In this document: positions 5,405 through 59,054 of the stretch, one piece after another
How positions within the stretch are numbered: position 1 is the stretch's first letter
Layout of the letters: each line of letters starts with the position of its first letter
From: Candidatus Limivicinus sp.
GTDB taxonomy: Bacteria > Bacillota > Clostridia > Oscillospirales > Oscillospiraceae
Assembly: GCA_045592365.1 (NCBI GenBank)
Contig: JAZNUQ010000073.1
Location: forward strand, 18,912-82,911
DNA: 64,000 nucleotides
Direction: 5' to 3'
Notes under the pieces: model-generated
What the model saw: the letters and a program-made list of their open reading frames with translations, nothing else
Database searches by the model: none
What the model was told of the DNA's origin: nothing
Made by a program: the position numbers and the translations under genes

Positions 5405-6469
5405 TTATTTTCTGCGCCGTGAAGCGCTGCGGCGTCTTGATTTTGCGCCGATATTCTCCACCGTCTGCATTATGCCCAGCACCAGCGCACCCAGCACACA
5501 GGGCAGGCTTATGTATGCCGCCAGCTTTGCAAGACTGTCGTAAACACCGCCCTCCTCAGGCTTTTCCACCACAGGCTCCGCAGCAGGCATCACCTCCGGG
5601 GTCGGAAGCGCCTCGGGAGTTGGTGTAGGCTGGGGCTGCGCCTCCTGAGCCGCTATAAGCGCCTCAAGGCGCTTGTCCAGCTCAAGTGTGTAGTTTACCA
5701 GCATCTCTGCCGCGTCACCCATCAGAGCATCCTCATAGTGCAGATACTCGGTCATAACCGTCACCACTATGGGGTTTGGAGTGTAGATTATGCCGCCTAT
5801 ATGGTAAAACTCCTCAAGAGCGCCATATTTCTGGGCTATCTCGTACTCATCGTTCAGATTGCGGCGCAGGTACTGGCCGGGGCTTGCCCGCAGCAGCTTT
5901 TCATGCACACCGGGGTAATCCTCAGGGCTTCGGCGCAGCGTGTCAAAAACATCCAGCACATAGACGGGGTTAACATAGCCGTAGTCCATAAAGTCCGGGT
6001 CGTATTCCTCCGCTTTCATGGAGGAGTACTTCATGCTGTCCGCTCTCCAGACGGCATCTCCACCCAGATAATTGCGCATCACATGAGCCCATTCGTTATT
6101 GGAGTGGACGAGGATAAGCTCCTCGGCCTCCTCCAGCTTCATGCCCTTTATCTCGGTTTCCTTTGTTATCTCGCCGCTTTTGACCTTTTCGGCCATAAGC
6201 ATCATAAGAGGCACCTTGTACATGCTGCCTGCGTAGTACCATTCGTCCCGGTTATAATACCAGCGTTCACCGGTGGCGGTGTAGCAGTAGCCTATGCTGA
6301 TATTGCCGCCGTCTATTTCATGCTCGGCGATAAAATCCTCCATCAGCGCATCAAGCTCCGCCGGGTCAATAACGGAAAGCTCCTCCGTATCCGCATAGGC
6401 GGTGCAGCTCGGGCAAAGCACAGCCGCACAGAGCAGCAGGCACAGCAGCCCTTTATATATTCTTTTCAC
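5405..6469 (-). CDS. secreted serine hydrolase, class A beta-lactamase-related, with C-terminal membrane anchor
   Basis: Signal peptide, S-x-x-K (SMYK), SNN and KYG motifs, a Pro-rich linker (QPQPTPTPEALPTPE), then a C-terminal TM helix and an RRRSASRRRK tail. Confidence 0.7.
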   Translation of the reverse strand: MKRIYKGLLCLLLCAAVLCPSCTAYADTEELSVIDPAELDALMEDFIAEHEIDGGNISIGYCYTATGERWYYNRDEWYYAGSMYKVPLMMLMAEKVKSGEITKETEIKGMKLEEAEELILVHSNNEWAHVMRNYLGGDAVWRADSMKYSSMKAEEYDPDFMDYGYVNPVYVLDVFDTLRRSPEDYPGVHEKLLRASPGQYLRRNLNDEYEIAQKYGALEEFYHIGGIIYTPNPIVVTVMTEYLHYEDALMGDAAEMLVNYTLELDKRLEALIAAQEAQPQPTPTPEALPTPEVMPAAEPVVEKPEEGGVYDSLAKLAAYISLPCVLGALVLGIMQTVENIGAKSRRRSASRRRK

Positions 6470-7761
6470 AGGCTCAGCCCCTCTCCGCTGCGGCGAAAGC
6501 TCCTGGAATAAAAAAGCTCCGCAGCCCTGATAAGATATGCGGTATCCTCCGCACCGGCAGTTTCCAGGGCAGAATGCATTGCAAGCTGAGGAAGTCCGAT
6601 GTCAACACAGTCAATGGACACATGGGAGGAGCTTATATTGCCCAGAGTGGAGCCGCCGGGCAGATCGCCGCGGTTGGAATAGCGCTGCACCGGCACCCCC
6701 GCCTCCCTGCATATCTCTGCAAACACCGCCGTTGACACGGCGTCCGATGTATAGCGCTGGTTTGCGTTAAACTTGATGACCACGCCGCCGTTGAGCACCG
6801 GCCTGTCATTACGGTCGGAATACTCAGGGTGATTGGGATGCACCGCATGTGCATTGTCCGCCGAGACCATGAAGCTGTTGGCAAGGGCCGTGTGCAGGCT
6901 TCTGCCAAAGCAGGCGCAGAGCCTCTCCAGAACATGGGAAAGGAAGCCTGAATCTGCCCCCTGCTTTGTACCGCTGCCTACCTCCTCATTATCAAACACG
7001 CTGAGCACAGACACGCTGCCGCCGGGTGCGGAATTCAAAAAGCCCTTCATGCAGGCAAAGACGCACTGCAGATCGTCAAGTCTGGGAGAGGATATAAATT
7101 CATCCTCCGCGCCCCACATAAAGCCGGGGGCTCTGGGATAAAGGAAAAGGTCCTTTGATATAATGTCCTCCTCCTTAACACCGGCGGCCTCTGCTATTAT
7201 CCCGTCAAGGCTCAGCTCTGACGAGGCGCTTGAAATAAGGGGCAGCATATCAACATTGGGATTAAAGCTCTTTCCGTCGTTTACGCTTCTGTCCATGTGA
7301 ATGGCCACATTGGGTATCATAAGCAGGTCCCTATCGATGTTCACCAGCTTGCTTGCAATGCCCTTTTCGCTCCTTATGGCAATTCTGCCGGCAAGGGACA
7401 GGGGCCTGTCCATCCATGAGGAGAATATCATGCCGCCGTAGCGCTCCACATTAAGCTGGGTATAAAGACCGGCTGCCTTAACGGACGCATTGTCCTTAAC
7501 GCGGAAGGAAGGTGCGTCACTGTGAGCTGCCATTATCATAAAGCCTGCGAAATCGGCTCCGGGAATGCTGAAAGCGATGATGGAGGAGGCGTTTCGGCGG
7601 ACAAAGTAGCTGCCCGGCGCGGAAAGCTCCCAGTCCTGCCACTCGTAAAGCTCGGTAAAGCCCTTGCTTACAAGCTCACCGGCTATATTTTCCACCGCGT
7701 GAAAGGCAGTGGGGCTTGCATTTATAAAATCAAAAAGCTCTTTGTTTATCTGCTTGTTCAT
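6466..7761 (-). CDS. M18 family aminopeptidase
   Basis: 431 aa. N-terminus ELFDFINASPTAFHAV and overall M18 (aspartyl aminopeptidase-like) architecture. 4-nt overlap with the downstream hydrolase gene. Confidence 0.85.
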   Translation of the reverse strand: MNKQINKELFDFINASPTAFHAVENIAGELVSKGFTELYEWQDWELSAPGSYFVRRNASSIIAFSIPGADFAGFMIMAAHSDAPSFRVKDNASVKAAGLYTQLNVERYGGMIFSSWMDRPLSLAGRIAIRSEKGIASKLVNIDRDLLMIPNVAIHMDRSVNDGKSFNPNVDMLPLISSASSELSLDGIIAEAAGVKEEDIISKDLFLYPRAPGFMWGAEDEFISSPRLDDLQCVFACMKGFLNSAPGGSVSVLSVFDNEEVGSGTKQGADSGFLSHVLERLCACFGRSLHTALANSFMVSADNAHAVHPNHPEYSDRNDRPVLNGGVVIKFNANQRYTSDAVSTAVFAEICREAGVPVQRYSNRGDLPGGSTLGNISSSHVSIDCVDIGLPQLAMHSALETAGAEDTAYLIRAAELFYSRSFRRSGEGLSL

Positions 7762-7831
7762 TGCGTATCTCCCTGTAACAGTCTAACTTTTATTGTATCA
7801 CATATTTCAGCGTTTGAACATAGATAAATAT

Positions 7832-7868
7832 AAAAAAGCTCTCCCTTCCGGCCGAGGGAAGGGAGAGC
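7832..7868 (-). terminator. intrinsic terminator after ygjV-like gene
   Basis: GCTCTCCCTTC-n9-GAAGGGAGAGC, followed on the minus strand by TTTTTT. Confidence 0.8.
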
Positions 7869-7887
7869 CTTAGTCCGAAGTCTGGGC

Positions 7888-8388
7888 TTATTTCTTTTTT
7901 GGCTTAAGCACCGCGATCAGGGTGGTAATGAAAATTATAAGGTTTGATACCACACCCACGGCATTGTAAATTGCAAAGTTAAAGCAGAAAAACATTGCCG
8001 CGCAGAAAAGGAAGGATATTTTCAGCGCCCGCTCATTATCCTTGAAGCGAAAAACGGCAATAGTGTACTGGAAATTTGCTATCACCGGCAGCAGCCCCAT
8101 GAAGCCGAGATTATTGAAGGCCACACCCAGCACCACACCCAGAGCCACAAACAGCCACTCCAGCGCCTTGCTTTTTTTGCCGCTCATGGCAAAAATATTT
8201 CGAAGCAGGCTCACGAAATTCTGCACCGCGCCGCTGTATCCGCCAAGTATAGCCGTACCCACGCCGTATATCACCTGGCTTATGCTCTGAAACAGCAATA
8301 CATCCTTCGTGCTTTTGCGGGTGGAGCTTACCGAGTCCGTTATCATTGCAAGCAGGCTGCAAACATTGCCTGTAATTATATTTAACAT
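7888..8388 (-). CDS. YgjV family inner membrane protein
   Basis: 166 aa, 5 predicted TM segments. N-terminal GNVCSLLAMITDSVS...LLFQSISQVIY pattern typical of YgjV-family proteins. Confidence 0.65.
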   Translation of the reverse strand: MLNIITGNVCSLLAMITDSVSSTRKSTKDVLLFQSISQVIYGVGTAILGGYSGAVQNFVSLLRNIFAMSGKKSKALEWLFVALGVVLGVAFNNLGFMGLLPVIANFQYTIAVFRFKDNERALKISFLFCAAMFFCFNFAIYNAVGVVSNLIIFITTLIAVLKPKKK

Positions 8389-8522
8389 AGCTATCCCCTT
8401 TCAGACTAATACAATATACACCATGAGGCAAGGCTGCGCAAGTGTGAGCGCAATTTATTATTTACTTCTGTTTTTTGAAGTGGTAATATAGATATGTTTT
8501 AGTCCAATAAAGGAGCACAGCC

Positions 8523-9938
8523 ATGAGAAAAACCAAGATTATCTGCACCATCGGTCCGGCCAGCGAAAGCCCCGCCGTTTTCAGACAGATGTGCCTTGAG
8601 GGCATGAATGTGGCAAGACTGAATTTCTCCCACGGCACCCATGAACAGCACAAGGAAAAAATCGACATGATAAAGGCCGTTCGGCAGGAGCTCAATCTGC
8701 CCATCGCCATCATGCTTGACACCAAAGGGCCGGAATACCGTATAGGCACCTTTGCCGAGGGCAGGATAAGCCTTGAGGACGGGGCGGAATTTACCTTCAC
8801 CACCAGAGATGTTCCGGGTGATGAGAGCATAGTGTCGGTAAGCTACAAGGGGCTTTGTGAGGATCTCTGTCCCGGAGATACGGTGCTTGTCAATAACGGC
8901 CTTGTTATCTTCCGGGTTGAAAGTATAGACGGCTGCGACATTCACTGCCGCGTTGTCACCGGCGGTGTTCTCAGTGACCGCAAGAGCATGAGCTTCCCCG
9001 GCAAGGTGATGCGTCAGAAATATCTCAGCGAGCAGGATAAGGCCGACCTTCTTTTCGGCATTGAAAACGATGTGGACTTTGTCGCCGCCTCCTTCGTCTC
9101 CGGCAAGCAGGACCTGCTTGATTTGAGGGGCTTTCTCAATGCAAACGGCGGCGAGGAGATAGAGATAATCGCCAAGATAGAAAACCAGTCCGGTGTTGAC
9201 AACATAGACGAGATATGCACCGTCTGCGAGGGCGTTATGGTTGCCCGCGGCGACCTGGGCGTTGAGGTTCCCTTTACGGAGCTGCCCGCGATCCAGAAAT
9301 ATCTGATCGATAAATGCCGCATGCTGGGTAAGCGTGTAATAACCGCCACCGAAATGCTTGAAAGCATGATAAACAATCCCCGCCCCACCAGAGCAGAGAT
9401 AAGCGATGTGGCAAACGCGGTTTACGACGGCACCAGCGCCATCATGCTCTCCGGCGAGTCTGCCGCAGGCAAATACCCGGTGGAGGCTGTGCGCGTTATG
9501 AGCCGCATCGCCGAGGAAACCGAGCGCCACATCGACTATACCCGTCATTTTCAGACCCGCACCTTTGAGATAGACAATCGGGTGGACGCCATCTCCCACG
9601 CAGCCTGCACCATGGCTATTGACCTTAAGGCCAAGGCGCTTATAGTTACCTCTCTCAGCGGCCTTACCGTTCGTATGGTCTCCCGCTTCAGAATACCCAT
9701 CACCATTTTGGGCCTTGCCACCGGCAAAAAGGTATGGTATAAGCTGGCACTCTCCTGGGGTGTGCTGCCGCTGCTGACGGAGCAGTTCCCCAACATGGAG
9801 GTGCTCACCTTCTACGCTGTACGCCTTGCCAAAACAGAGCTTTGCCTCAAGAATGGCGACACCGTGGTTATTACCGGTGGCAACACCAGCGGCGCCAGCG
9901 GCAACACCAATGTGCTGAGAATTGAAACAATTTCATAA
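8523..9938 (+). CDS. pyk: pyruvate kinase
   Basis: MRKTKIICTIGPAS, NVARLNFSHG and MVARGDLGVE motifs. RBS AAAGGAG lies upstream. Confidence 0.95.
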   Translation: MRKTKIICTIGPASESPAVFRQMCLEGMNVARLNFSHGTHEQHKEKIDMIKAVRQELNLPIAIMLDTKGPEYRIGTFAEGRISLEDGAEFTFTTRDVPGDESIVSVSYKGLCEDLCPGDTVLVNNGLVIFRVESIDGCDIHCRVVTGGVLSDRKSMSFPGKVMRQKYLSEQDKADLLFGIENDVDFVAASFVSGKQDLLDLRGFLNANGGEEIEIIAKIENQSGVDNIDEICTVCEGVMVARGDLGVEVPFTELPAIQKYLIDKCRMLGKRVITATEMLESMINNPRPTRAEISDVANAVYDGTSAIMLSGESAAGKYPVEAVRVMSRIAEETERHIDYTRHFQTRTFEIDNRVDAISHAACTMAIDLKAKALIVTSLSGLTVRMVSRFRIPITILGLATGKKVWYKLALSWGVLPLLTEQFPNMEVLTFYAVRLAKTELCLKNGDTVVITGGNTSGASGNTNVLRIETIS

Positions 9939-50389: not shown

Positions 50390-51214
50390 ATGGCAAGAAT
50401 AATTGAAATAGACGATTTCAACGCCCCGGAGCTGGATATTTACGCCAGACTTACGGAAAATCAGCTTGTAAACCGGCAGGAGCCAAAAAACGCCATGTTC
50501 ATAGCGGAAAGCCCCGTGGTTATAGAGCGGGCTCTGGATGCAGGCTATGAGCCGGTGAGCCTTTTGATGGAGCGCAGGCATGTGGAAAATCAGGCAAAGG
50601 CGGTTATTGAGCGCTGCGGCGATGTGCCGGTATATACCTCTACCCTTGATGTGCTTACCCAGCTTACAGGCTTTAAGCTGACAAGGGGCGTGCTGTGTGC
50701 CATGCGCCGCAGGGCGCTTCCCTCTGCGGAGGATATTTGCCGGGGCGCAAGGCGGATAACGGTGCTTGAGAATATAATGAACCCCACCAACCTTGGTGCT
50801 ATTTTCCGCTCGGCAGCGGCTCTTAATATGGATGCGGTGCTGCTGACCCCCGCCTGCTCCGACCCGCTGTACCGGCGCTCTGTCCGGGTCAGCATGGGCA
50901 CGGTGTTTCAGGTGCCATGGGCGTGGCTTGGGGATGATGTGAATGACTGGCCCCACCCGGGGCTTGAGCGGCTTAAGGCCATGGGCTTTAAAACCGCAGC
51001 CATGGCGCTGCGCGATGACAGCGTCAGCATAGACGACAAGGAGCTCATGGCGGAGGATAAGCTGGCCATAGTCCTTGGCACCGAGGGCGACGGTCTTGCC
51101 GATGAGACAATAGCCAAATGCGACTATACGGTGCGCATCCCCATGTCACACGGAGTTGATTCGCTGAATGTACCCGCCGCCAGCGCGGTAGCCTTCTGGC
51201 AGCTTGGGAAATAA
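50390..51214 (+). CDS. TrmH/SpoU family RNA 2'-O-methyltransferase
   Basis: SpoU motifs NPTNLGAIFRSAAA, IVLGTEGDGL and IPMSHGVDSLNV. Confidence 0.85.
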   Translation: MARIIEIDDFNAPELDIYARLTENQLVNRQEPKNAMFIAESPVVIERALDAGYEPVSLLMERRHVENQAKAVIERCGDVPVYTSTLDVLTQLTGFKLTRGVLCAMRRRALPSAEDICRGARRITVLENIMNPTNLGAIFRSAAALNMDAVLLTPACSDPLYRRSVRVSMGTVFQVPWAWLGDDVNDWPHPGLERLKAMGFKTAAMALRDDSVSIDDKELMAEDKLAIVLGTEGDGLADETIAKCDYTVRIPMSHGVDSLNVPAASAVAFWQLGK

Positions 51215-51215
51215 A

Positions 51216-51248
51216 TGAAAAACAGCCTCCCCTGGAGGCTGTTTTTCA
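51216..51248. terminator. bidirectional terminator
   Basis: AAAAACAGCCTCC-cct-GGAGGCTGTTTTT between convergent genes. Confidence 0.85.
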
Positions 51249-51249
51249 T

Positions 51250-51705
51250 TTATTCAAGCTCAAATATTCCTTCCACCTCAACGGAAATACCGCCGGGCAG
51301 GGCTGCAACTCCGATAGCGGAGCGGGCATGACGCCCTGCCTCACCGAAGGTCTCCGCAAAAAGCTGGGATGCACCGTTTATAACAAGGTGCTGTCTGTCA
51401 AAATCCGGCTCGCTTGCCACAAAGCCAAGGAGCTTCACCACCTGCTTTATTCTGTTCAGGTCGCCCAGATATGCGTGAAGCACCGCCAGCATGTTTATTG
51501 CGGCATATCTTGCCCCAAGCTGAGCCTGGGCAATATCATCGTCCTTTGCAAGGCTGCCCTTTATAACGCAGTCACCGGAGATGCTGCCCTGTCCGGACAC
51601 GAACAGCAGCTTCCCTGTCTGAACCACATTCTTGAACATACCGATGGGCGCAATCACCTCCGGCAGCTCCACACCCTGCTGTCTCAGTCTTTCATACACA
51701 TCCAT
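51250..51705 (-). CDS. RidA/YjgF family protein
   Basis: ORF 51250..51720. YjgF fold pattern (LLFVSGQG, ARSAIGVAALP..ISVEVE). ATG 51705 preferred, although GTG 51720 would overlap the upstream stop. Confidence 0.8.
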   Translation of the reverse strand: MDVYERLRQQGVELPEVIAPIGMFKNVVQTGKLLFVSGQGSISGDCVIKGSLAKDDDIAQAQLGARYAAINMLAVLHAYLGDLNRIKQVVKLLGFVASEPDFDRQHLVINGASQLFAETFGEAGRHARSAIGVAALPGGISVEVEGIFELE

Positions 51706-51716
51706 GGCCGGCACCC

Positions 51717-52532
51717 TCACATTTTCTCAATGCACCTGAGTATCAGTGCCTGAAGCACATGCCCCTGACGCTGGCCTATCTCGATAACCTCTTCCTCGGT
51801 GAGCTTCTGATCAAGAACGCCTGCTGCCATATTGGTTATCAGCGAGAAGGCAAGCACCCTGATACCGGCATGGGCGGCGATGGTGACCTCAGGCACGGTG
51901 GACATGCCCACGGCGTCAGCGCCAAGGATGCGGAAGGCCCGTATCTCCGCCGGCGTCTCGTAGCTGGGGCCGGTGCAGGCAAAATATACTCCCTTGCGCA
52001 GCTTTATGCCCAGCTCCTCAGCGGCAGCGGCAGCGATTTTCCGAAGCTCCGGGGTGTAGGTATAGGTCATGTCGTTGAAGCGGGGGCCAAACTGAGAGGC
52101 ATTTTCACCGATGAGAGGATTGGTGCCCTGGAAGTTTATGTGATCTTCAATGAGCATTATATCGCCCACATTGAAGTCAAAATTAACTCCTCCGGCGGCG
52201 TTTGTTACAATAAGCGTCTCAATCCCCAAGAGCTTCATCATACGGATTGGGAAGGCAATGTCCTCCATGGGGTGACCCTCGTAGAAGTGGAGCCTGCCCT
52301 GCATGCATACCACCTTTTTGCCGCCCAGAGAGCCGCAGACGAGCTGACCCTTGTGCCCCGGTGCGGTGGAGCAGGCCATGTGGGGTATTTCCTTATAGGG
52401 TATCTCAATTTTACTCTCTATCTTCTCTGCAATGCCGCCAAGGCCGCTGCCCAGTATAATACCGATTTCCGGCTTAAAGCCTATTATGCCGCTTACATAT
52501 TCCGCGGCCTGCCTGATTTTTTCGTAGCTCAT
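51717..52532 (-). CDS. purine nucleoside phosphorylase, PNP/MTAP family (PunA-type)
   Basis: GIILGSGLGG, GRLHFYEGH and TNAAGG motifs of trimeric PNP/MTAP enzymes. Confidence 0.85.
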   Translation of the reverse strand: MSYEKIRQAAEYVSGIIGFKPEIGIILGSGLGGIAEKIESKIEIPYKEIPHMACSTAPGHKGQLVCGSLGGKKVVCMQGRLHFYEGHPMEDIAFPIRMMKLLGIETLIVTNAAGGVNFDFNVGDIMLIEDHINFQGTNPLIGENASQFGPRFNDMTYTYTPELRKIAAAAAEELGIKLRKGVYFACTGPSYETPAEIRAFRILGADAVGMSTVPEVTIAAHAGIRVLAFSLITNMAAGVLDQKLTEEEVIEIGQRQGHVLQALILRCIEKM

Positions 52533-53872
52533 TTATTTAACTCCTTCAGTATCCTGTTTACGGATATTTCCGCATTTGCAATCACCCGCTCAATGTCGAT
52601 GGTGGTGTAAACCCCGTCCCTGTACAAAACCCGTCCGTCGGCCATTGTAAGGCACACATCGCTGCCCTGAGCGGAATACACCAGATTGTGAAGCATATCG
52701 TGGCAGGGATGCATATAGGGTCTGCCCTGTACCTCAAGCACCGCAAGGTCAGCCCTGAAGCCCTCCTTTATCAGGCCGCAGTCCTGTCTTCCCTGAGACA
52801 GAGCCCCCGCTCTTGTACAGGCATAAAGCGCCTGCCTTGCGCTGATGGCGGTGGGATCCCCGGTGGAGCCCTTGAAGACAATGGCAGCCAGCTTCATCTC
52901 CTCAAACAGGTTGAGATTATTGTTGCTGGCGACGCCGTCGGTGCCCAGCGCGTAGTTAATACCCTTTTCAAGCATCTTCGGTGCCGGGCAAAAGCCGCTT
53001 GCCAGCTTAAGATTGCTGACAGGGCAGCTTGCAACGGTAACGCCCTTTTCAAGCAGTATCTCCATGTCCTCTTCCTCCACCCACACGCAGTGTGCGGCGG
53101 TGGCGGGCACATCGAAGGCACCGTTATCCAGAAAATATTTTGCCGGGCTTCTGCCGCCTCTGCGAGCCTTGCATTCTTCATGCTCAGCCCTGGTTTCCGA
53201 CAGGTGCAGGTGCATATTCAGCCCCAGCTCCTTTGCAAGCGCCGCCATCTGACCCACGGTTTTTTCCGTAGAGGTATATTCCGCGTGGATGGAAAGGTCG
53301 GTTTTAAGCCGCCCGCCGCCGGCGCCGTTATACTCCGGCACAACCTGCATTATCTGCCGGTAAATGGGAAGCTCCTTAAGCTCACTGTCATCAAAACAGG
53401 TCATGGGCAGAGCCATGTTCATTTTGATGCCGCTTTCAAGGACGGCTCTGGCGTTTGCCTGAGCGTCAAAATACATGTCGGTGCAGCCCACCACGCCAAA
53501 GCGCAGCATCTCGGCAGCGGCAAGCATGGCTCCGTTATATACCGCCTCGTTGTCCAGCCTTGCCTCAAAGGGGAAGATGTGCTTATTGAGCCACACATCC
53601 AGCACCTCGTTTTCGGCGTAGCCCCGCATAAGGGTCATGGCGTTGTGGCTGTGGGCATTGTATAAGCCGGGTATCATGAGCTTCCCCACCCCGTCGTAAC
53701 TTTCGCCGTAATCGGCATCCGGGGCACAGTCACCGATATAGGCAATGCGCTCATCCTTTACGCCCACGAAGCAGTCCGGGCGGAAGTTAAAATTCTCGTC
53801 TATGATGCCAATGTTTTTGAAAAGCACGGTATCACCCTTTCTCAAAATCCTCTGCGGCAAGGGGTCGGCCAC
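52529..53872 (-). CDS. mtaD: 5-methylthioadenosine/S-adenosylhomocysteine (5'-deoxyadenosine) deaminase-like amidohydrolase
   Basis: MtaD pattern: LFKNIGIID...GLYNAHSHNAMTLMRGY, HLSET. An alternative GTG start at 53827 would remove the 41-nt overlap with the upstream gene. Confidence 0.8.
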   Translation of the reverse strand: MADPLPQRILRKGDTVLFKNIGIIDENFNFRPDCFVGVKDERIAYIGDCAPDADYGESYDGVGKLMIPGLYNAHSHNAMTLMRGYAENEVLDVWLNKHIFPFEARLDNEAVYNGAMLAAAEMLRFGVVGCTDMYFDAQANARAVLESGIKMNMALPMTCFDDSELKELPIYRQIMQVVPEYNGAGGGRLKTDLSIHAEYTSTEKTVGQMAALAKELGLNMHLHLSETRAEHEECKARRGGRSPAKYFLDNGAFDVPATAAHCVWVEEEDMEILLEKGVTVASCPVSNLKLASGFCPAPKMLEKGINYALGTDGVASNNNLNLFEEMKLAAIVFKGSTGDPTAISARQALYACTRAGALSQGRQDCGLIKEGFRADLAVLEVQGRPYMHPCHDMLHNLVYSAQGSDVCLTMADGRVLYRDGVYTTIDIERVIANAEISVNRILKELNK

Positions 53873-54527
53873 CGGCCTTCACGCCCAGCCTTTGACGAAT
53901 GTCCACAAGCTCCTGGACCTGAGCGCGGCTGAGAATATGCGGCTTCACGTTAAGGAAGCCCAGCTTCTCCATCACCTGCGCGCAGCACTCCAGCGTCTCC
54001 ATGCGGTAGTAGGCCTCAATGCCGGTTCTGCCCCATGTAAGGGCGCCGTGGTTTGCCAGCAGCAGGGCGTTATAGTCCCGGCAGAAGGGCGCCACGCTCT
54101 CTGCAACACCGGCAGTTCCGGTGGTGGCGTAGTCCGCCACAGGCACAACGCCAAGGCCGATAACCGACTCGGTCATCAGCGCAAGCTCAAGGGGTACGCG
54201 GGCAATTGCAAAGGCGGTGGCGGTGACGGGATGGGCGTGAACCACCGCGCCCACCTCGGGGTTTTCCTTGTATACGCGAAGGTGCATGCCGGCCTCGGAG
54301 GAGGGCTTCATGCTCCCCTCAAGAACATTTCCGTCCATATCAAGGCAGATAAGCATGTCCTCGGTCATATAGCCCTTGGAAACGCCCGCCGGGGTGACCC
54401 ACACACGGTTTTCCCCAACGCGGATGCTGATGTTTCCGTCGTTTGCGGCCACATAGCGCCGTTCAAACATGCGCCTGCCTATCTCAATAATCTGTTCTCT
54501 TGCCTCTTTGTCACTGGGGTATATCAT
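53832..54527 (-). CDS. class II aldolase/adducin family protein (MtnB dehydratase or 5-(methylthio/deoxy)ribulose-1-phosphate aldolase)
   Basis: NDGNISIR, GAVVHAHP and LLANHGALTWG motifs of the class II aldolase family. Lies 2 nt downstream of mtnA. Confidence 0.8.
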   Translation of the reverse strand: MIYPSDKEAREQIIEIGRRMFERRYVAANDGNISIRVGENRVWVTPAGVSKGYMTEDMLICLDMDGNVLEGSMKPSSEAGMHLRVYKENPEVGAVVHAHPVTATAFAIARVPLELALMTESVIGLGVVPVADYATTGTAGVAESVAPFCRDYNALLLANHGALTWGRTGIEAYYRMETLECCAQVMEKLGFLNVKPHILSRAQVQELVDIRQRLGVKAGGRPLAAEDFEKG

Positions 54528-54529
54528 GC

Positions 54530-55597
54530 TCAGCCCTCCCCGAAGAGCTTTTTAAAGCCCTCGTCAAAGGGCGCTCTTACTATGCCCTTTTCGGTGACAA
54601 AGGCGGTGATAAGCTCCCTGTCGGTCACATCGAAGGCCGGATTATATACCTTGACTCCCTCGGGAGCCATGCGCTTTTCATACCACATTTCGGTGACCTC
54701 ATGGTCGGGGCGCAGCTCTATCTCAATGTCATCCCCGGTGGGACAGCTCATGTCAATGGTGGACATGGGCGCGCACACATAGAAGGGAATGCCGTAGTGC
54801 TTTGCAAGGATGGCAACGCCTGAGGTGCCTATCTTGTTCGCAGCGTCGCCGTTTGCCGCCACACGGTCGCAGCCCACGAACACAGCCTGCACCCAGCCCT
54901 TTTTCATAACGGAGGAGGCCATATTGTCGCAGATAAGGGTAGTGTCCACTCCGTCTGCAACCATCTCATAGGCGGAGAGCCTTGCCCCTTGCAGAAGGGG
55001 TCTTGTCTCGTCGGTGAAGACCCGGAAGCTCATACCCTTTTCCCGTCCCAGATGTACAGGGGCAAGGGCGGTTCCGTAGCGGGTGGTGGCAAGCTGACCT
55101 GCGTTGCAGTGGGTCAGTATACCGTCCCCGTCCTTTATGAGTGTCAAACCGTTTTCACCTATGGCGCGGCATACGGCAATATCCTCGTCCCGTATTCTGA
55201 GAGCCTCGGCGCGAAGAAGCTCCTTGAGCTCTGCACTTGAGCAGTCATTGGACCTTACCACATCGTGCATACGCTCCAGAGCCCATGAGAGGTTCACCGC
55301 CGTGGGTCTGGAGGACACCAGATAGTCCTTTATCCGCGCAAACTCCCTGTCAAAATCCTCTCTGGGCATGTCCTCAAGGCGGCACACCACACAGTATATG
55401 CCTATTGCCGCCGCAACACCGATTGCGGGAGCGCCGCGGACGCGGAGCTTATAAATGGCCTCGTAAATATCCTCAGCCCTTGAGAGACTGAGCATCACCG
55501 TCTCTGCGGGCAGCTTCGTCTGGTCGATTATCACGAGCTCCTTTGTGGCCTCATTCATGGTGACGGTATCCCGTCTCAGTATATTGTCTTTCTGCAT
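54530..55597 (-). CDS. mtnA: S-methyl-5-thioribose-1-phosphate isomerase
   Basis: [19 protein letters not shown] and [18 protein letters not shown] motifs of the MtnA/eIF-2B family. Confidence 0.9.
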
Positions 55598-55626
55598 GGC
55601 TGCCTCCGTATTTGCTTATTTTTATC

Positions 55627-55656
55627 ATTTTACCCCATGGCACAAATCAGTGTCAA
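55627..55656 (-). promoter_or_regulatory. sigma-A promoter of the mtnA operon
   Basis: On the minus strand: TTGACA (55656-55651), 18 nt spacer, TAAAAT (55632-55627). The leader is only about 25 nt, which leaves no room for a riboswitch. Confidence 0.7.
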
Positions 55657-55714
55657 GGAAATGCTGGAACTTGGATGAAATATGTAGTACAATATAAAAA
55701 ACCGAAATAATAAA

Positions 55715-56481: not shown

Positions 56482-57020
56482 TTGCCCCGCACCCCCAGCC
56501 TTGTAAAGAGGATGCCCGCCGCCGCGCAGAATACCACGAACAGCACCGGGGAAATGTCAAACACCGCCGACAGCACGAAGACCCCAAGGCAAAGCAGCAG
56601 CGCTGCCTTATCCTTGACGGCGGACTTCCACAGCTTCACCACGGCATTGAAGATAAGCACGCACACGCAGACACGAATGCCTGCAAAGGCGCTTTTCACC
56701 GCCGGGATATGGGCAAAATTCGTGAGGATGCCCGCAATGAGGCATATTATCACCAGTGAGGGAAAAACCATGCCCAGGGTTGCAAACACGCCGCCCCAGA
56801 CGCCGGCCACCTTGTGGCCTATAAAGGTCGCCGTATTCACCGCGATGATGCCGGGAGTGCACTGACCCACGGCATAATAGTCCATAAGCTCCTCGCTTGT
56901 GGCCCAGTGGCGCTTCTCCACCACCTCACGCTCAAGAATGGGTATCATGGCGTAGCCGCCGCCGAAGGTCAGCGCGCCCATTTTGGCACATACGCAGAAC
57001 AGCTCCCAGAGCTTTTTCAT
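56478..57020 (-). CDS. chrA: chromate transporter (CHR family, short-chain half)
   Basis: LTFGGGYAMIPILEREVVEKRHW..GQCTPGIIAVN. Start set at ATG 57020 (MKKLWELF), giving an ATGA overlap with the pgm-like stop. Confidence 0.85.
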   Translation of the reverse strand: MKKLWELFCVCAKMGALTFGGGYAMIPILEREVVEKRHWATSEELMDYYAVGQCTPGIIAVNTATFIGHKVAGVWGGVFATLGMVFPSLVIICLIAGILTNFAHIPAVKSAFAGIRVCVCVLIFNAVVKLWKSAVKDKAALLLCLGVFVLSAVFDISPVLFVVFCAAAGILFTRLGVRGK

Positions 57021-58744
57021 TTGCTCAGTTCCTCGGCAAAGGCGCTGTAAGCTGCCATGCGCTCGCTGCACTGCTCACGGCTTTCGCCGCGCACAAGCAG
57101 ATAGACCTTTATCTTGGGCTCGGTGCCGGAGGGACGGATAATGAAGGTGCAGCCGTCGTTAAGCTCGAAGTAGAGCACATTGGAGCCTGCAAAGGGGGTC
57201 CTGTCCACCTTGCCCAGACCTGCAACAAATATGCTGCCGTCCAGATAGTCTCTCAGGCGGATAACCTCCTGACCGGCGATCTCCCGGGGAGGATCGTTTC
57301 TCAGCTTCTTCATGAGAGCCTGCATCTTCTGCACGCCGTCAACGCCGGGCATAACCAGGTTCAGGGTCTTTTCCATGAAGTAGCCGTACTTCTCGTACAG
57401 AGCGTCGATGGCGTCAAGGAGGGTCATGCCCTGCTTCTGGTAATATGCAGCCATCTCAGCCACCAGCAGAGAGGCGGTGACGGCGTCCTTGTCGCGGACG
57501 AAGTCGCCCATCATGTAGCCGTAGCTCTCCTCAAAGGCGAAAATGTACTTGTGGCTCTTTTCCGCATCCCACTTTGCAACCAGCTCTGCCATGAACTTAA
57601 AGCCGGTGAAGGTCTCCTCAAAATGCACGCCGTTTGCCTCGGCAACGGCTCTTGCCATGCCGGTGGAAACGATGGAGCACATTGCGCCGGGATTTTCGGG
57701 CATGGCGCCGGTTCTGCGGCGGGCGTTGATAACATAGTCAAGCAGCAGCACGCCCATCTGGTTGCCGGTGATGGTAACATACTCATCGCCGCGGCGCACC
57801 ATGGTGCCGATACGGTCGGAGTCGGGGTCGGTGCCGATTATCAGGTTGCTGTCCACCTGCTTTGCCAGCTCCACCGCCAGATAGAAGCCCTCGGGATTTT
57901 CCGGGTTGGGGCTTGCCACGGTGGGGAAATTGCCGTCAATGACCATCTGCTCGGGCACGGGGAACAGGTGCTTCACACCAAGGCGGCGCAGCACCTCGGG
58001 AACCATCTTGTAGCCGCAGCCGTGGAAGGGAGTGTACACGATGCGAAGCTCGTCTGCGACCTCCTTCACAAGCTCGGTGTCAATGGCCTGCTCCATGACC
58101 TTTGCCATGAATATCTCGTCGGTCTCTTCGCCCAGCATGATAATTCTGCCGTCCTTAAGGGCCTCGTCAAAGTCGCAGGTCTTGAAGCCTGTGAAAATGT
58201 CGTTGGCCTCCATCTGGCGGGCGATGAACTCGGCCTTCTGAGGGGGAAGCTGAGCGCCGTCGGACCAGTAGACCTTGTAGCCGTTGTATTCCTTGGGGTT
58301 GTGGCTTGCGGTGATGTTAAGACCTGCGGCAGCGCCGTAGTGGATAACCGCAAAGCTCAGCTCGGGGGTGGGGCGCAGCGCGTCAAACAGGCGCACGCGG
58401 ATGCCGTTGGCAGCCATGACGCAGGCGGCCTCACGGGCAAAGTCCGCGCCGTTGAGACGGCAGTCGTAGGCAATGCAGATGCCCTTCTCCTTGGCCTGCT
58501 GACCCTCGTCGGCGATAACATCGGCGAAGGCCTGAGTTGCGTGGCGGATAATATGCACATTCATGTTGTGCAGGCCCACCTTCATGGTGCCGCGAAGACC
58601 GGCGGTGCCGAACTCCAGGGGTGCGTAGAAGCGGTTTTCGATTTCCTTTTCGTCGTCTGCGATGGCGTTGAGCTCAGCCCATTCCGCCTCGCTGAGTGCG
58701 GGGCTGTCCAGCCAGCGCTGGTATTCTGCCTTATAATTGCTCAT
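57017..58744 (-). CDS. phospho-sugar mutase (alpha-D-phosphohexomutase family; phosphoglucomutase/phosphomannomutase)
   Basis: Active-site TASHNPKEYNGYK, Mg loop GTDPDSDR, sugar loop FEESYG. Start at ATG 58744 (MSNYKAEY). Confidence 0.9.
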   Translation of the reverse strand: MSNYKAEYQRWLDSPALSEAEWAELNAIADDEKEIENRFYAPLEFGTAGLRGTMKVGLHNMNVHIIRHATQAFADVIADEGQQAKEKGICIAYDCRLNGADFAREAACVMAANGIRVRLFDALRPTPELSFAVIHYGAAAGLNITASHNPKEYNGYKVYWSDGAQLPPQKAEFIARQMEANDIFTGFKTCDFDEALKDGRIIMLGEETDEIFMAKVMEQAIDTELVKEVADELRIVYTPFHGCGYKMVPEVLRRLGVKHLFPVPEQMVIDGNFPTVASPNPENPEGFYLAVELAKQVDSNLIIGTDPDSDRIGTMVRRGDEYVTITGNQMGVLLLDYVINARRRTGAMPENPGAMCSIVSTGMARAVAEANGVHFEETFTGFKFMAELVAKWDAEKSHKYIFAFEESYGYMMGDFVRDKDAVTASLLVAEMAAYYQKQGMTLLDAIDALYEKYGYFMEKTLNLVMPGVDGVQKMQALMKKLRNDPPREIAGQEVIRLRDYLDGSIFVAGLGKVDRTPFAGSNVLYFELNDGCTFIIRPSGTEPKIKVYLLVRGESREQCSERMAAYSAFAEELSK

Positions 58745-59054
58745 TTTCCGTGCTCTCCTCTTCACATAATTTTACAGCATCTTGAAACAGGGTACAGGGT
58801 ACATATATATCTGCGCCGTTGCCGCTCATCCCCAGCACCACGCGGCCGAAGCCGCCGTCGCCGGGATAAACGCGCAGGCAGGGTATCCCATAGGCCTCCA
58901 GCATGTTGACCGTCAGCTCGTCCTCCATGTCAACACATTTTTTCCTGCAAAGGAAAAGCGGCTCGACCGGCTCTCCTCCTTCATCCTTGGGCCAGCGCTT
59001 ATAAAGCTCGCCCACAATGGCTCTGCCCCATTGGGCCTTTTCCATTTTGTTCAC
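58731..59054 (-). CDS. hypothetical protein
   Basis: 107 aa ORF packed tightly between rlmH and the mutase gene. No recognised motif. Confidence 0.5.
   Translation of the reverse strand: MNKMEKAQWGRAIVGELYKRWPKDEGGEPVEPLFLCRKKCVDMEDELTVNMLEAYGIPCLRVYPGDGGFGRVVLGMSGNGADIYVPCTLFQDAVKLCEEESTENEQL

What the first reader, a model, noticed from the sequence alone, without database searches (positions are those of the whole stretch)
51250..55656. Five-gene operon mtnA-aldolase-mtaD-PNP-ridA: deaminase-route salvage of MTA/5'-deoxyadenosine (DHAP-shunt-like)
**Seen directly.** Five co-directional genes have 2-nt gaps or overlaps, behind one promoter (TTGACA, 18 nt, TAAAAT) with a very short leader. 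They are MtnA isomerase, a class II aldolase/adducin-family protein, an MtaD-type adenosine-analogue deaminase, a PunA/MTAP-family phosphorylase and RidA.

**Established biochemistry of these families.**
- MtaD/DadD converts MTA or 5'-deoxyadenosine to the inosine analogues.
- PNP-type phosphorylases release 5-(methylthio or deoxy)ribose-1-phosphate.
- MtnA isomerises this product to the ribulose-1-phosphate.
- Class II aldolase-family members then either dehydrate it (MtnB, classical Met salvage) or cleave it to DHAP plus (methylthio)acetaldehyde or acetaldehyde (the DHAP shunt).

**Inference.** No mtnC/D/W/X-type genes are present in the window, and the O2-dependent MtnD step is unavailable to strict anaerobes. 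I therefore favour the aldolase (shunt) reading, fed by a deaminase plus an inosine-type phosphorylase rather than by MtnN/MtnK or MtnP. The co-transcribed RidA is not part of described versions of the pathway.
Basis: partly seen in the sequence, partly recalled or inferred. Interest (0 to 1): 0.6.

Follow-up and report, generated by a model that had tools for sequence, protein, structure and literature searches.

The report
Deaminase-first salvage operon for 5'-deoxyadenosine
A gut or rumen Oscillospiraceae bacterium carries a real five-gene operon that most likely clears the toxic radical-SAM by-product 5'-deoxyadenosine by deaminating it, removing the base and splitting the sugar into DHAP plus acetaldehyde; this is an undescribed entry variant of a known pathway, and its RidA gene is a strain-specific passenger.

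Summary
**Observation: confirmed.** Five minus-strand genes (mtnA, class II aldolase, MtaD-type deaminase, PunA-type phosphorylase, Rid-family protein) run from a near-consensus promoter to a strong terminator. Junctions are +2, +4, -4 and +11 nt.

**Interpretation: largely supported.**
- No MtnN, MtnK or MTAP scored over cut-off, and MtnC, MtnD, RuBisCO-like protein, LuxS, DeoB and SpeE were not found. The genome is 86% complete.
- It has AhcY and at least 18 radical-SAM enzymes, so 5'-deoxyadenosine is the likely main substrate.
- The aldolase is not MtnB. Its clade sits beside MtnA and MtnK in about 140 loci, but it is separate from the characterised Ald2, DrdA and FucA (about 30% identity).
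- The core mtnA-aldolase-deaminase-PNP is kept in relatives at 68-87% aldolase identity.
- Other genera of the family built the same four activities from a different isomerase/aldolase pair.
- In the family sample, PunA and MtnN are largely complementary.

**RidA is not part of the pathway.**
- It is found only in this strain.
- The fifth gene elsewhere is an Fe-alcohol dehydrogenase, a phosphomutase or two unknown genes.
- Its homologues sit beside PLP enzymes.

**Novelty.** This is a new variant of a known kind. This scan has already noted deaminase-first DHAP-shunt operons on other DNA (Negativicutes, Phascolarctobacterium, Bacteroidales).

The parts
55627..55656 (-). Sigma-70-type promoter, TTGACA-18 nt-TAAAAT. 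The -10 box ends 29 nt before the mtnA ATG.
   Evidence: It matches 11 of 12 positions and is the best site in the region. The -35 box and spacer lie in a 36-nt stretch that is 100% identical in relative L183, and the -10 box is conserved too.
54530..55597 (-). mtnA: 5-(methylthio or deoxy)ribose-1-phosphate isomerase, 355 aa.
   Evidence: TIGR00512 412 bits (cut-off 279) and NF004326 444 bits (cut-off 271). PF01008. It is the only copy in the genome.
53832..54527 (-). Class II (metal-dependent) aldolase, 231 aa. Predicted 5-deoxyribulose-1-P / methylthioribulose-1-P aldolase of 'clade A'.
   Evidence: - PF00596 172 bits; no NCBIfam equivalog is over its cut-off.
- Glu78, His97, His99 and His160 align with the catalytic Glu and metal His residues of FucA and DrdA.
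- Homologues lie next to MtnA and MtnK.
52529..53827 (-). MtaD/DadD-type amidohydrolase, 432 aa, GTG start. Predicted 5'-deoxyadenosine / MTA deaminase.
   Evidence: - PF01979 187 bits.
- Best solved relatives: P. aeruginosa PA3170 (4gbd/4dyk, 213 bits), Cv1032 MTA/SAH deaminase (4f0r) and TM0936.
- The HxH, HxxE, His and GTDG motifs are conserved in that alignment.
51717..52532 (-). PunA-type trimeric purine nucleoside phosphorylase (inosine/guanosine type), 271 aa. Its ATG overlaps the deaminase stop codon (ATGA).
   Evidence: TIGR01700 353 bits (cut-off 293); the MTAP model scores only 91 against 275. It is the only PunA in the genome. The 6-oxopurine Asn (SLITN) is kept.
51250..51705 (-). 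Rid-family protein (PF14588 subgroup, Arg105 equivalent present), 151 aa. It is a strain-specific fifth gene and probably a passenger.
   Evidence: - PF14588 65.5 bits; the RidA model TIGR00004 scores 35 against 106.
- Apart from 99%-identical short contigs, the nearest homologues are at most 61% identical. They sit just upstream of PALP enzymes.
- It is absent from L183, L006 and L185.
51209..51255 (.). Bidirectional intrinsic terminator: a 22-bp perfect hairpin flanked by A/T runs. It lies between the operon and the convergent SpoU-methylase gene.
   Evidence: -31.1 kcal/mol, z = -6.7, with 0 of 200 shuffles folding as well. The spurious miRNA-like Rfam hits on both strands reflect this hairpin.

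Best explanation
The operon encodes a deaminase-first variant of the DHAP shunt, which disposes of 5'-deoxyadenosine and MTA.

**Proposed steps**
1. The MtaD-type deaminase converts 5'-deoxyadenosine, made by the genome's 18 or more radical-SAM enzymes, and any MTA to 5'-deoxyinosine and methylthioinosine.
2. The PunA-type phosphorylase releases hypoxanthine plus 5-deoxyribose-1-P or methylthioribose-1-P.
3. MtnA isomerises this to the ribulose-1-P form.
4. The class II aldolase cleaves it to DHAP plus acetaldehyde or 2-(methylthio)acetaldehyde.

**Shown here**
- Gene identities, operon anatomy and conservation of the four-gene core.
- No canonical entry enzyme (MtnN, MtnK, MtnP) over cut-off, and none of the methionine-regenerating enzymes searched for (MtnC, MtnD, RuBisCO-like).
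- The genomic company of the aldolase clade.

**Inferred**
- Every substrate and product.

The Rid-family gene is a recently inserted passenger, co-expressed but not a pathway step. The operon looks like two older modules joined together: deaminase+PunA and MtnA+aldolase. These modules occur separately in many genomes of the same family.
For: **Enzyme identities**
- MtnA and PunA pass their curated equivalog cut-offs.
- The deaminase's closest solved relatives are all MTA, SAH or 5'-dAdo-type deaminases, and its catalytic motifs are intact.
- The aldolase keeps the catalytic Glu and the three metal His residues.
- The aldolase fails every MtnB model.
- In the tree it lies far from true MtnBs.

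**Company of the aldolase clade**
- At 45-61% identity it sits next to MtnA, often with a TIGR01767-passing MtnK and sugar transporters.
- Hosts include Neobacillus, Sporosarcina, Paenibacillus, Clostridium, Hungatella and others.
- These are the cluster types defined as 5-deoxyribose / DHAP-shunt clusters (PMC6079011).

**Conservation of the core**
- The four-gene core is kept at 87, 73, 70 and 68% aldolase identity.
- These copies form a monophyletic subclade with 100/97 support.
- One relative adds a YqhD-like Fe-ADH. That fits reduction of the aldehyde product.

**Independent assembly**
- G112 and G105 carry PNP-deaminase-MtnA'-aldolase' built from a different isomerase and aldolase lineage.
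- That aldolase falls in the larger clade that also holds FucA, Ald2 and DrdA.

**Own genome (86% complete)**
- MtnN and MTAP models gave only hits below cut-off. MtnK, MtnC, MtnD and RuBisCO-like protein were not found.
- AhcY is present, so SAH is handled separately.
- At least 18 radical-SAM genes are present.

**Family sample of 150 genomes**
- PunA is found in 82 of 114 genomes lacking MtnN, but in only 8 of 36 genomes with MtnN.
- 23 of 32 genomes with this aldolase carry PunA.
- Deaminase and PunA are adjacent in at least 10 family genomes.
Against: - No enzyme activity or transcript was measured.
- The PNP is a standard inosine/guanosine-type enzyme. The one 5'-OH-contact change I examined (human His257 to Glu) is family-wide rather than operon-specific, so nothing in its sequence points to 5'-deoxy substrates.
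- The aldolase is only about 30% identical to the characterised Ald2 and DrdA and falls in a different clade. No member of its clade that I know of has been assayed.
- The deaminase passes no equivalog cut-off, and a second MtaD-like paralogue exists at G000:C40.
- The genome is 86% complete, so absences are provisional.
- No other species among 40 sampled in the genus carries the aldolase, and most of them also lack MtnN. The operon is therefore not the genus's general solution.
- The family-level co-occurrence counts are not phylogenetically independent.
Confidence: 0.68

Rival explanations
1. The same enzymes mainly degrade ordinary adenosine and inosine. The route would be adenosine to inosine to hypoxanthine plus ribose-1-P, then MtnA converts ribose-1-P to ribulose-1-P, and the aldolase cleaves it to DHAP plus glycolaldehyde. 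This would use nucleoside ribose without a phosphopentomutase.
For: - PunA is an ordinary inosine/guanosine-type PNP.
- No DeoB phosphopentomutase was found in the genome.
- The aldolase scores 98 bits against the haloarchaeal ribulose-1-P aldolase model NF053831.
- MSP enzymes of B. subtilis have been reported to act on ribose (Nakano 2013, cited as ref 58 in PMC10986504; not read here).
- TM0936-group deaminases also accept adenosine (my own knowledge).
Against: - The Ru1P-aldolase score is far below its cut-off of 300.
- The aldolase clade travels with MtnK kinases that pass the methylthioribose-kinase equivalog and with MtnA. This is the signature of 5-deoxy / 5-methylthio pentose handling (PMC6079011).
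- A PGM2-like phosphomutase sits nearby or adjacent in five contexts (window, L006, L052, L067, L114). It could supply phosphopentomutase activity, which would make an aldolase route for ribose-1-P unnecessary.
- The genome also has a DeoD-type PNP next to a nucleoside transporter for bulk nucleosides.
Confidence: 0.15
2. This is classical or anaerobic methionine salvage. The class II aldolase-family protein would be an MtnB dehydratase, and sulfur from MTA would be recycled to methionine.
For: MtnA passes the salvage_mtnA equivalog, and the aldolase-family protein gives weak hits to MtnB models at 94-98 bits.
Against: - All MtnB models score below their cut-offs.
- True MtnBs form a distant outgroup.
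- No MtnC, MtnD or RuBisCO-like protein was found.
- No spermidine synthase was found, so there is little endogenous MTA.
Confidence: 0.04
3. The Rid-family protein is a true fifth pathway component, for example quenching a reactive enol, enamine or imine species formed from the sugar or aldehyde products.
For: It lies tightly behind the PNP, with an 11-nt gap, its own GAGG ribosome-binding site and a shared terminator. The Arg105 equivalent needed for imine hydrolysis is present (alignment).
Against: - It is found only here and on 99%-identical short contigs.
- The closest relative, which shares downstream synteny (SpoU), lacks it. Other relatives carry Fe-ADH or PGM in that position.
- Homologues at 55-61% identity all sit directly upstream of PLP-dependent PALP enzymes, which is the classical Rid context.
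- The hydrolytic deaminase releases no free imine (established amidohydrolase mechanism).
Confidence: 0.08
4. The deaminase/PNP half mainly serves purine (hypoxanthine) salvage or SAH clearance, and the adjacency to mtnA-aldolase is incidental.
For: The deaminase-PunA pair is common in the family without a neighbouring aldolase. TM0936-type enzymes deaminate SAH (PDB names).
Against: - AhcY is present for SAH.
- The four genes stay together across 68-87% identity relatives.
- The same four activities were assembled a second time from different isomerase and aldolase lineages.
- 23 of 32 aldolase-bearing family genomes have PunA.
Confidence: 0.05

Closest known systems
DHAP shunt / 5-deoxyribose salvage. 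Examples: R. rubrum and R. palustris MtnP-MtnA-Ald2; ExPEC E. coli Pfs + MtnK-MtnA-Ald2; B. thuringiensis DrdK-DrdI-DrdA (PMC6079011, PMC10986504, PMC12632272).
   Same: - It has an MtnA-type isomerase followed by a class II metal aldolase, predicted to give DHAP plus acetaldehyde or methylthioacetaldehyde.
- It has an operonic layout.
- It occurs in genomes that lack the rest of methionine salvage.
- An aldehyde-reducing ADH accompanies it in one relative.
   Different: - Entry is through an adenine-ring deaminase plus an inosine-type PunA phosphorylase, with hypoxanthine released. Described versions use MtnN+MtnK or MtnP, with adenine released.
- The aldolase belongs to a separate clade from the assayed Ald2 and DrdA, at about 30% identity.
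Methanocaldococcus jannaschii DadD (5'-deoxyadenosine deaminase), MtiP phosphorylase and MTR-1-P isomerase network (Miller et al. 2014 and 2018, as summarised in PMC6302742).
   Same: The order of the first three reactions is the same: deaminate, phosphorolyse the inosine analogue, isomerise.
   Different: - It is archaeal.
- MtiP is of the MTAP family, not PunA.
- Its genes are not, to my knowledge, reported as one operon.
- The product is proposed to feed 6-deoxy-5-ketofructose-1-P for aromatic amino acid synthesis, rather than simple aldol cleavage by a co-encoded class II aldolase.
Pseudomonas aeruginosa MTA deaminase PA3170 plus methylthioinosine phosphorylase PA3004 (Guan et al. 2011 and 2012, cited in PMC6302742).
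   Same: The deaminase is the best solved homologue (4gbd/4dyk, 213 bits). The logic of deamination before phosphorolysis is the same.
   Different: The P. aeruginosa phosphorylase is MTAP-like, it is not in an operon with MtnA and an aldolase, and it feeds the full methionine salvage pathway.
L-fucose / L-rhamnose 6-deoxyhexose catabolism (FucA plus the FucO lactaldehyde reductase).
   Same: It uses a class II aldolase that cleaves a 1-phospho-ketose to DHAP plus a short aldehyde. FucA is the best PDB match (4c24, 99.6 bits). An Fe-ADH partner is seen in relative L185.
   Different: No fucose isomerase, kinase or permease is present. The aldolase falls outside the FucA clade and scores below the FucA cut-offs.

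Membership tests
DHAP shunt (as described in R. rubrum, E. coli, B. thuringiensis) | An entry step by MtnP, or by MtnN plus MtnK/DrdK, giving 5-deoxy- or methylthio-ribose-1-P and adenine. | tested here: not met
   No MtnK was found. MtnN scores only 36 bits (cut-off 74), and MTAP scores only 91 bits (cut-off 275), that hit being the PunA itself. A deaminase plus PunA is proposed to do the job. The genome is 86% complete.
DHAP shunt (as described in R. rubrum, E. coli, B. thuringiensis) | An MtnA/DrdI isomerase encoded next to the aldolase. | tested here: met
   TIGR00512 412 bits against 279. A 2-nt gap separates it from the aldolase.
DHAP shunt (as described in R. rubrum, E. coli, B. thuringiensis) | An aldolase orthologous to the characterised Ald2 or DrdA. 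| tested here: not met
   It is 31% identical to E. coli ATCC 25922 Ald2 and scores 85 bits against DrdA (6btd). It forms a separate clade A (96/88), distinct from the FucA/Ald2/DrdA clade.
DHAP shunt (as described in R. rubrum, E. coli, B. thuringiensis) | Cleavage of 5-deoxyribulose-1-P or MTRu-1-P to DHAP plus an aldehyde. | not testable with these tools
   This needs an enzyme assay. Indirect support comes from the clade's linkage to MtnA and MtnK and from the Fe-ADH neighbour in L185.
Class II (metal-dependent) aldolase/adducin superfamily | The PF00596 fold with a catalytic Glu, three metal-binding His residues and phosphate-binding Asn/Thr/Ser-Ser. | tested here: met
   - PF00596 172 bits.
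- N29, T45, S76-S77-E78, H97, H99 and H160 are invariant across 15 homologues.
- They align with the KPSSE, HxH and ANHG motifs of FucA and DrdA.
MtnB methylthioribulose-1-P dehydratase (classical methionine salvage) | Scores over the MtnB equivalog cut-off and clusters with bona fide MtnB, with downstream MtnC/D or MtnW/X present. | tested here: not met
   - TIGR03328 94 against 137; NF006672 97.5 against 226; NF005244 68 against 281.
- MtnBs form a distant outgroup.
- No MtnC, MtnD or RuBisCO-like protein was found. mtnX was not searched.
MTA / SAH / 5'-deoxyadenosine deaminases (amidohydrolase cog0402, TM0936/PA3170/DadD group) | Amidohydrolase fold, HxH + His + Asp metal site and catalytic Glu, with closest relatives inside this group. 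| tested here: met
   PF01979 187 bits. The top seven PDB hits belong to this group or are unnamed amidohydrolases next to it, while guanine deaminase scores only 83 bits. The motifs are conserved in the 4dyk alignment.
MTA / SAH / 5'-deoxyadenosine deaminases (amidohydrolase cog0402, TM0936/PA3170/DadD group) | Substrate preference for 5'-deoxyadenosine or MTA. | tested here: inconclusive
   No equivalog is over its cut-off: DadD model NF005557 291 against 522; MTA/SAH model NF012037 211 against 779. The papers giving specificity residues were not held.
PNP-I / PunA trimeric inosine-guanosine phosphorylase | Passes the PNPH equivalog, and the 6-oxopurine-selecting Asn (human Asn243) is present. 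| tested here: met
   TIGR01700 353 against 293 and NF006054 383 against 218. The SLITN motif is kept. The human numbering is from my own knowledge.
MTAP / MtiP 5'-methylthio-nucleoside phosphorylases | Scores over the MTAP or MTIP equivalog cut-offs. | tested here: not met
   TIGR01694 91 against 275 and NF006599 76 against 223.
RidA (archetypal enamine/imine deaminase) | Passes the Rid-family detoxifying-hydrolase model (TIGR00004) and has the Arg105 equivalent. | tested here: inconclusive
   TIGR00004 scores 35 against 106, so it is not archetypal RidA. It does belong to PF14588 (65.5 against 35), and the Arg in 'HARSAIG' aligns with 'HARAAVG' of 3d01 and PA0814. It is best described as a Rid-subfamily protein.

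The most novel reading that the evidence does not exclude
Two readings are not excluded, and they could both hold.

(a) The deaminase + PunA module, with a so far unassayed 'clade A' class II aldolase, is the main route for 5'-deoxyadenosine disposal in MtnN-less gut and rumen Oscillospiraceae. That would make it a third, hypoxanthine-releasing entry to the DHAP shunt, assembled at least twice independently.

(b) More radically, in this DeoB-less genome the same four enzymes also carry ordinary nucleoside ribose (ribose-1-P to ribulose-1-P to DHAP + glycolaldehyde). That would be a bacterial counterpart of the haloarchaeal ribulose-1-P aldolase route, working without a bisphosphate intermediate.

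The probability given is for (b). I put reading (a) at about 0.6.
Probability: 0.15. Interest if true: 0.7.

Novelty: new variant of a known kind. Interest (0 to 1): 0.5.

Why it matters
- **A gap it would fill.** 5'-Deoxyadenosine inhibits radical-SAM enzymes, which strict anaerobes use heavily. How MtnN-less Clostridia remove it is not covered by the two described DHAP-shunt entries (MtnN+MtnK, or MtnP).
- **What the route would change.** It would recover the base as hypoxanthine, the sugar as DHAP and a C2 aldehyde. That explains why many Oscillospiraceae pair an 'MTA/SAH deaminase' with an inosine-type PNP.
- **Annotation.** It would correct routine labels such as 'L-fuculose-phosphate aldolase', 'chlorohydrolase' and 'RidA operon'.
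- **Enzymology.** It flags an unassayed aldolase clade that has replaced Ald2/DrdA in many Bacillota clusters.
- **Method.** The RidA result is a caution: tight operon membership in one strain is not evidence of pathway membership.

Tried and rejected
1. **A PNP active-site signature for 5'-deoxy substrates.** The human His257 equivalent is Glu here, but it is Glu, Gly or His across unlinked family PunAs too. I rejected it as evidence.
2. **An earlier paralogue check used a mis-framed deaminase query**. Redone, it revealed a second MtaD-like gene at C40.
4. **Primary papers not held.**
   - North et al. 2020 (mmi.14459 / PMC7237333).
   - Miller 2014 (PMC3957708).
   - Guan 2012 (PMC3567251).
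   - A PMC id I recalled for Hitchcock 2013.
   - As a result I could not check whether North 2020 already lists a deaminase variant or this aldolase clade. I also could not obtain the specificity-determining residues of the deaminase.
5. **Beaudoin's aldolase tree is an image**, so its clade membership could not be compared with mine.
6. **Genome contigs and metagenome-contig scans with the aldolase.** They returned only relatives at 66% identity or less. The closer relatives came from exact-protein look-ups.
7. **A complementary MtnN/operon pattern within the genus.** None was found. 0 of 40 species have the aldolase, only 5 of 40 have MtnN over its cut-off, and most have neither.
8. **A riboswitch or leader upstream.** None was found.
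9. **The 447-aa deaminase ORF from GTG 53872.** Rejected in favour of GTG 53827, on the basis of homologue lengths.

Full report
**1. What is in the sequence**

The minus strand between 55656 and 51209 carries five ORFs.

| Gene | Coordinates | Key score |
|---|---|---|
| MtnA | 55597-54530 | TIGR00512 412 bits, cut-off 279 |
| Class II aldolase-family protein | 54527-53832 | PF00596 172 bits; no NCBIfam equivalog over cut-off |
| Amidohydrolase deaminase | 53827-52529 | PF01979 187 bits |
| PunA-type purine nucleoside phosphorylase | 52532-51717 | TIGR01700 353 bits, cut-off 293; MTAP model only 91 |
| Rid-family protein | 51705-51250 | PF14588 65.5 bits; RidA model TIGR00004 35 against 106 |

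- Homologue lengths of 430 aa for the deaminase and 151 aa for Rid fix two starts: GTG 53827 and ATG 51705.
- With those starts the junctions are gaps of 2, 4 and 11 nt and one ATGA overlap.
- The promoter TTGACA-18-TAAAAT (55656-55627) matches 11 of 12 positions and is the best site in the region.
- The 36 nt around the -35 box and spacer are 100% identical in a relative whose aldolase protein is only 87% identical, and the -10 box is conserved too.
- A 22-bp perfect hairpin at 51209-51255 (-31.1 kcal/mol, z = -6.7) ends the unit opposite a convergent SpoU-methylase gene.
- No known RNA leader is present.

**2. Genome background**

The window lies in a 2.03-Mb, 109-contig MAG that is 86% complete. 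An earlier scan note and the names on homologous proteins point to gut or rumen Oscillospiraceae / Ruminococcaceae.

Not found, or only below cut-off:
- MtnK.
- MtnN over cut-off. The one weak hit is a DeoD-type PNP beside a nucleoside ABC transporter.
- MTAP over cut-off.
- MtnD/ARD.
- Enolase-phosphatase MtnC.
- RuBisCO-like protein.
- LuxS.
- DeoB.
- Spermidine synthase.

Found:
- An intact AhcY.
- At least 18 radical-SAM genes.
- An AraD-like epimerase as the only other class II aldolase-family gene.
- A second MtaD-like deaminase paralogue, 37% identical, next to murT/gatD on contig C40.

Three consequences follow:
- SAH has its own route.
- MTA has no obvious major source.
- 5'-Deoxyadenosine is produced, and no canonical disposal enzyme was found.

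**3. The aldolase**

*Catalytic residues.* It keeps the phosphate-binding residues, the catalytic Glu78 and the metal ligands His97, His99 and His160 of FucA and DrdA.

*Model scores.* It scores below every curated model:
- MtnB: 94 against 137.
- FucA: 122 against 250.
- OtnC: 124 against 250.
- Haloarchaeal Ru1P aldolase: 98 against 300.

*Genomic company.*
- I examined about 140 related loci at 45-66% identity from species-representative genomes, metagenomes and family genomes.
- The gene sits next to an MtnA gene in most of them.
- A kinase and sugar transporters often accompany it.
- The Neobacillus kinase passes the methylthioribose-kinase equivalog at 463 against 275.
- These are the kinase-isomerase-aldolase clusters defined as 5-deoxyribose / DHAP-shunt clusters by Beaudoin et al. 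(PMC6079011).

*Tree.* I built maximum-likelihood trees using:
- E. coli ATCC 25922 Ald2, FucA, YgbL and the epimerases.
- B. thuringiensis DrdA and S. pneumoniae FucA, taken from the PDB alignments.
- Three over-cut-off MtnBs.

The trees show:
- The window's protein falls in a well-supported clade A (96/88) with all the MtnA- and MtnK-linked homologues.
- Clade A is separate from the FucA/Ald2/DrdA clade.
- Clade A is also separate from the epimerases.
- MtnB lies far away.
- Identity to Ald2 is 31%.

The protein therefore works in the same genomic role as Ald2 and DrdA but is not their orthologue. I could not establish whether this clade has been assayed or catalogued, because North 2020 is not held and Beaudoin's tree is an image.

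**4. The deaminase and the phosphorylase**

*Deaminase.*
- Its best solved relatives are:
  - P. aeruginosa PA3170, the MTA deaminase, at 213 bits.
  - Unnamed amidohydrolases.
  - Chromobacterium MTA/SAH deaminase.
  - Thermotoga TM0936.
- All metal and catalytic motifs are conserved in those alignments.
- Guanine deaminase scores only 83 bits.
- No equivalog cut-off is passed, so substrate preference remains inferred.

*Phosphorylase.*
- It is a typical trimeric PNP and keeps the 6-oxopurine Asn.
- I tested whether the residue that contacts the 5'-OH in human PNP (His257) is altered specifically in operon-linked copies.
- It is Glu here, but it is also Glu in most unlinked PunAs of the family. 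This is no evidence either way.

**5. Conservation and modularity**

Exact-protein look-ups of closer aldolase relatives show the same core order, mtnA-aldolase-deaminase-PNP, at four levels of identity.

| Locus | Aldolase identity | What follows the PNP |
|---|---|---|
| Window | 100% | Rid |
| L183 | 87% | Two unknown genes |
| L184 | 73% | The contig ends at the gene after the deaminase, probably the PNP |
| L006 / L007 | 70% (23 contigs) | A PGM/PMM-family phosphomutase |
| L185 | 68% | A YqhD-like Fe-alcohol dehydrogenase (295 bits to PRK15138) |

- These aldolases form a monophyletic subclade (100/97) nested among MtnA-only and MtnK-linked members. The deaminase/PNP linkage is therefore derived.
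- An aldehyde reductase is what one would add to a pathway that releases acetaldehyde or methylthioacetaldehyde.

In a 150-genome sample of the family:
- The clade-A aldolase is present in 32 genomes.
- PunA is present in 90.
- MtnN over cut-off is present in 36.
- PunA occurs in 82 of 114 MtnN-negative genomes but in only 8 of 36 MtnN-positive genomes. The odds ratio is 0.11. Relatives are not independent, so the p-value is not to be trusted.
- 23 of the 32 aldolase genomes have PunA and 4 have MtnN.

Further points:
- The deaminase and PunA are adjacent, away from any aldolase, in at least 10 family genomes.
- Two other genera, G112 and G105, carry PNP-deaminase-MtnA'-aldolase' in a different order.
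  - Their isomerase is only 35% identical, yet it passes NF004326.
  - Their aldolase falls in the larger clade that also holds FucA, Ald2 and DrdA.
- G143 has aldolase'-PNP-MtnA'.
- The same four activities have thus been brought together at least twice from non-orthologous parts. This is the strongest comparative argument that they act in one pathway.
- Within the window's own genus, none of 40 other species has the aldolase. The operon is an accessory trait shared with the L183 lineage, which keeps the downstream SpoU synteny.

**6. RidA**

- The Rid protein has the Arg105 equivalent. It belongs to the PF14588 subgroup, alongside 3d01 and PA0814.
- Apart from 99%-identical short contigs, its nearest relatives are at most 61% identical.
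- In all three contexts inspected they lie immediately upstream of a PLP-dependent PALP enzyme, with amidohydrolases, peptidases and ABC transporters. This is the classical setting for quenching enamines and imines.
- The closest operon relative lacks it.
- I conclude that it is a recent insertion that rides on the operon's promoter and terminator, not a pathway step.

**7. Mechanism proposed**

1. Hydrolytic deamination of 5'-deoxyadenosine (and MTA).
2. Phosphorolysis to hypoxanthine plus 5-deoxy(methylthio)ribose-1-P.
3. Aldose-ketose isomerisation by MtnA.
4. Metal-dependent retro-aldol cleavage to DHAP plus acetaldehyde or 2-(methylthio)acetaldehyde.

Steps 1 to 3 mirror the M. jannaschii DadD-MtiP-isomerase network and the P. 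aeruginosa MTA deaminase / MTI phosphorylase pair, as summarised in PMC6302742. Steps 3 and 4 are the DHAP shunt (PMC6079011; PMC10986504; PMC12632272). The last of these, from 2025, still lists only MtnN/Pfs and MtnP as the enzymes that process MTA and 5dAdo in prokaryotes. My full-text searches found no paper describing a deaminase-fed bacterial DHAP-shunt operon.

**8. Rivals**

- **Ordinary nucleoside breakdown (confidence about 0.15).** The operon would handle ordinary adenosine and inosine, with ribose-1-P going to ribulose-1-P and then to DHAP plus glycolaldehyde.
  - *For:* the lack of DeoB and the ordinary nature of the PNP.
  - *Against:* the MtnK company of the aldolase clade, and a PGM2-like phosphomutase that recurs near the system (window 57017-58765, L006, L052, L067, L114) and could serve as a phosphopentomutase.
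- **Classical methionine salvage (about 0.04).** Effectively excluded.
- **A functional role for Rid (about 0.08).**
- **Incidental adjacency of the two halves (about 0.05).**

**9. Verdict**

- It is a new variant of a known kind.
- This scan has already recorded deaminase-first DHAP-shunt operons in Negativicutes, Phascolarctobacterium and Bacteroidales. I did not check those AI notes, and they are not independent evidence. They do indicate that the theme is widespread.
- Specific to this case:
  - A PunA rather than an MTAP-like phosphorylase.
  - The distinct aldolase clade.
  - The modular and twice-assembled architecture.
  - The variable fifth gene.

Noticed in passing
window 57017-58765 (-); also L006:10870-12375, L052:9178-10911, L067:9298-10983, L114:10755-12494: A PGM/PMM-family phosphomutase recurs next to or near the mtnA-aldolase(-deaminase-PNP) genes in five contexts. 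In the window it is a 582-aa gene that looks PGM2/PgcA-like by its length; that subgroup was not tested. The genome has no DeoB, so this may be its phosphopentomutase for the ribose-1-P made by PunA and DeoD.
   Followed up: partly
L238:3261-7078 (G112), L239:6543-10368 (G105), L237:5433-7980 (G143): Other genera of the same family carry a parallel operon, PNP-deaminase-MtnA'-aldolase'. Its isomerase is only about 35% identical. Its aldolase falls in the larger clade that also holds FucA, Ald2 and DrdA. This is an independent assembly of the same four activities.
   Followed up: partly
G000 contig C40, about 7450-8736 (+): A second MtaD-like amidohydrolase, 37% identical to the operon's, stands alone downstream of murT/gatD-like genes and upstream of a PHP phosphoesterase. 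Its role relative to the operon deaminase is unknown.
   Followed up: no
window 55635-55670 (-) against L183 about 5865-5900: A 36-nt stretch covering the -35 box and the spacer (AAGTTCCAGCATTTCCTTGACACTGATTTGTGCCAT) is 100% identical between two genomes whose aldolase proteins are only 87% identical. This suggests an operator or another constrained regulatory site.
   Followed up: no
L183:10068-13713: In the closest relative, the position held by rid is occupied by two large ORFs of 531 and 676 aa with no Pfam or NCBIfam match.
   Followed up: no
L216-L222 (metagenome contigs): There is a conserved cluster in which a Rid (PF14588) gene lies directly upstream of a PALP (PLP) enzyme, with amidohydrolase / M20 peptidase genes and an oligopeptide or sugar ABC transporter. 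It looks like a peptide or amino-acid-derivative catabolic module in Oscillospiraceae and their relatives.
   Followed up: no
PunA proteins of L187-L215 and window 51717-52532: In most Oscillospiraceae PunA-type PNPs the residue equivalent to human PNP His257, which contacts the 5'-OH, is Glu (sometimes Gly). Copies that are only 45-48% identical (L077, L078, L099) and solved bacterial PNPs keep His. The effect on 5' specificity is unknown.
   Followed up: partly
G000 against 40 same-genus genomes: None of 40 other species in the genus has the clade-A aldolase, and only 5 have MtnN over its cut-off. Most of the genus therefore has neither of these 5'-deoxyadenosine routes. How these species dispose of it is open.
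   Followed up: partly
L125:4291-5097 and L124 (human gut contigs): At 65-66% aldolase identity, an approximately 268-aa ORF with no Pfam match lies between mtnA and the aldolase. No deaminase or PNP follows.
   Followed up: no
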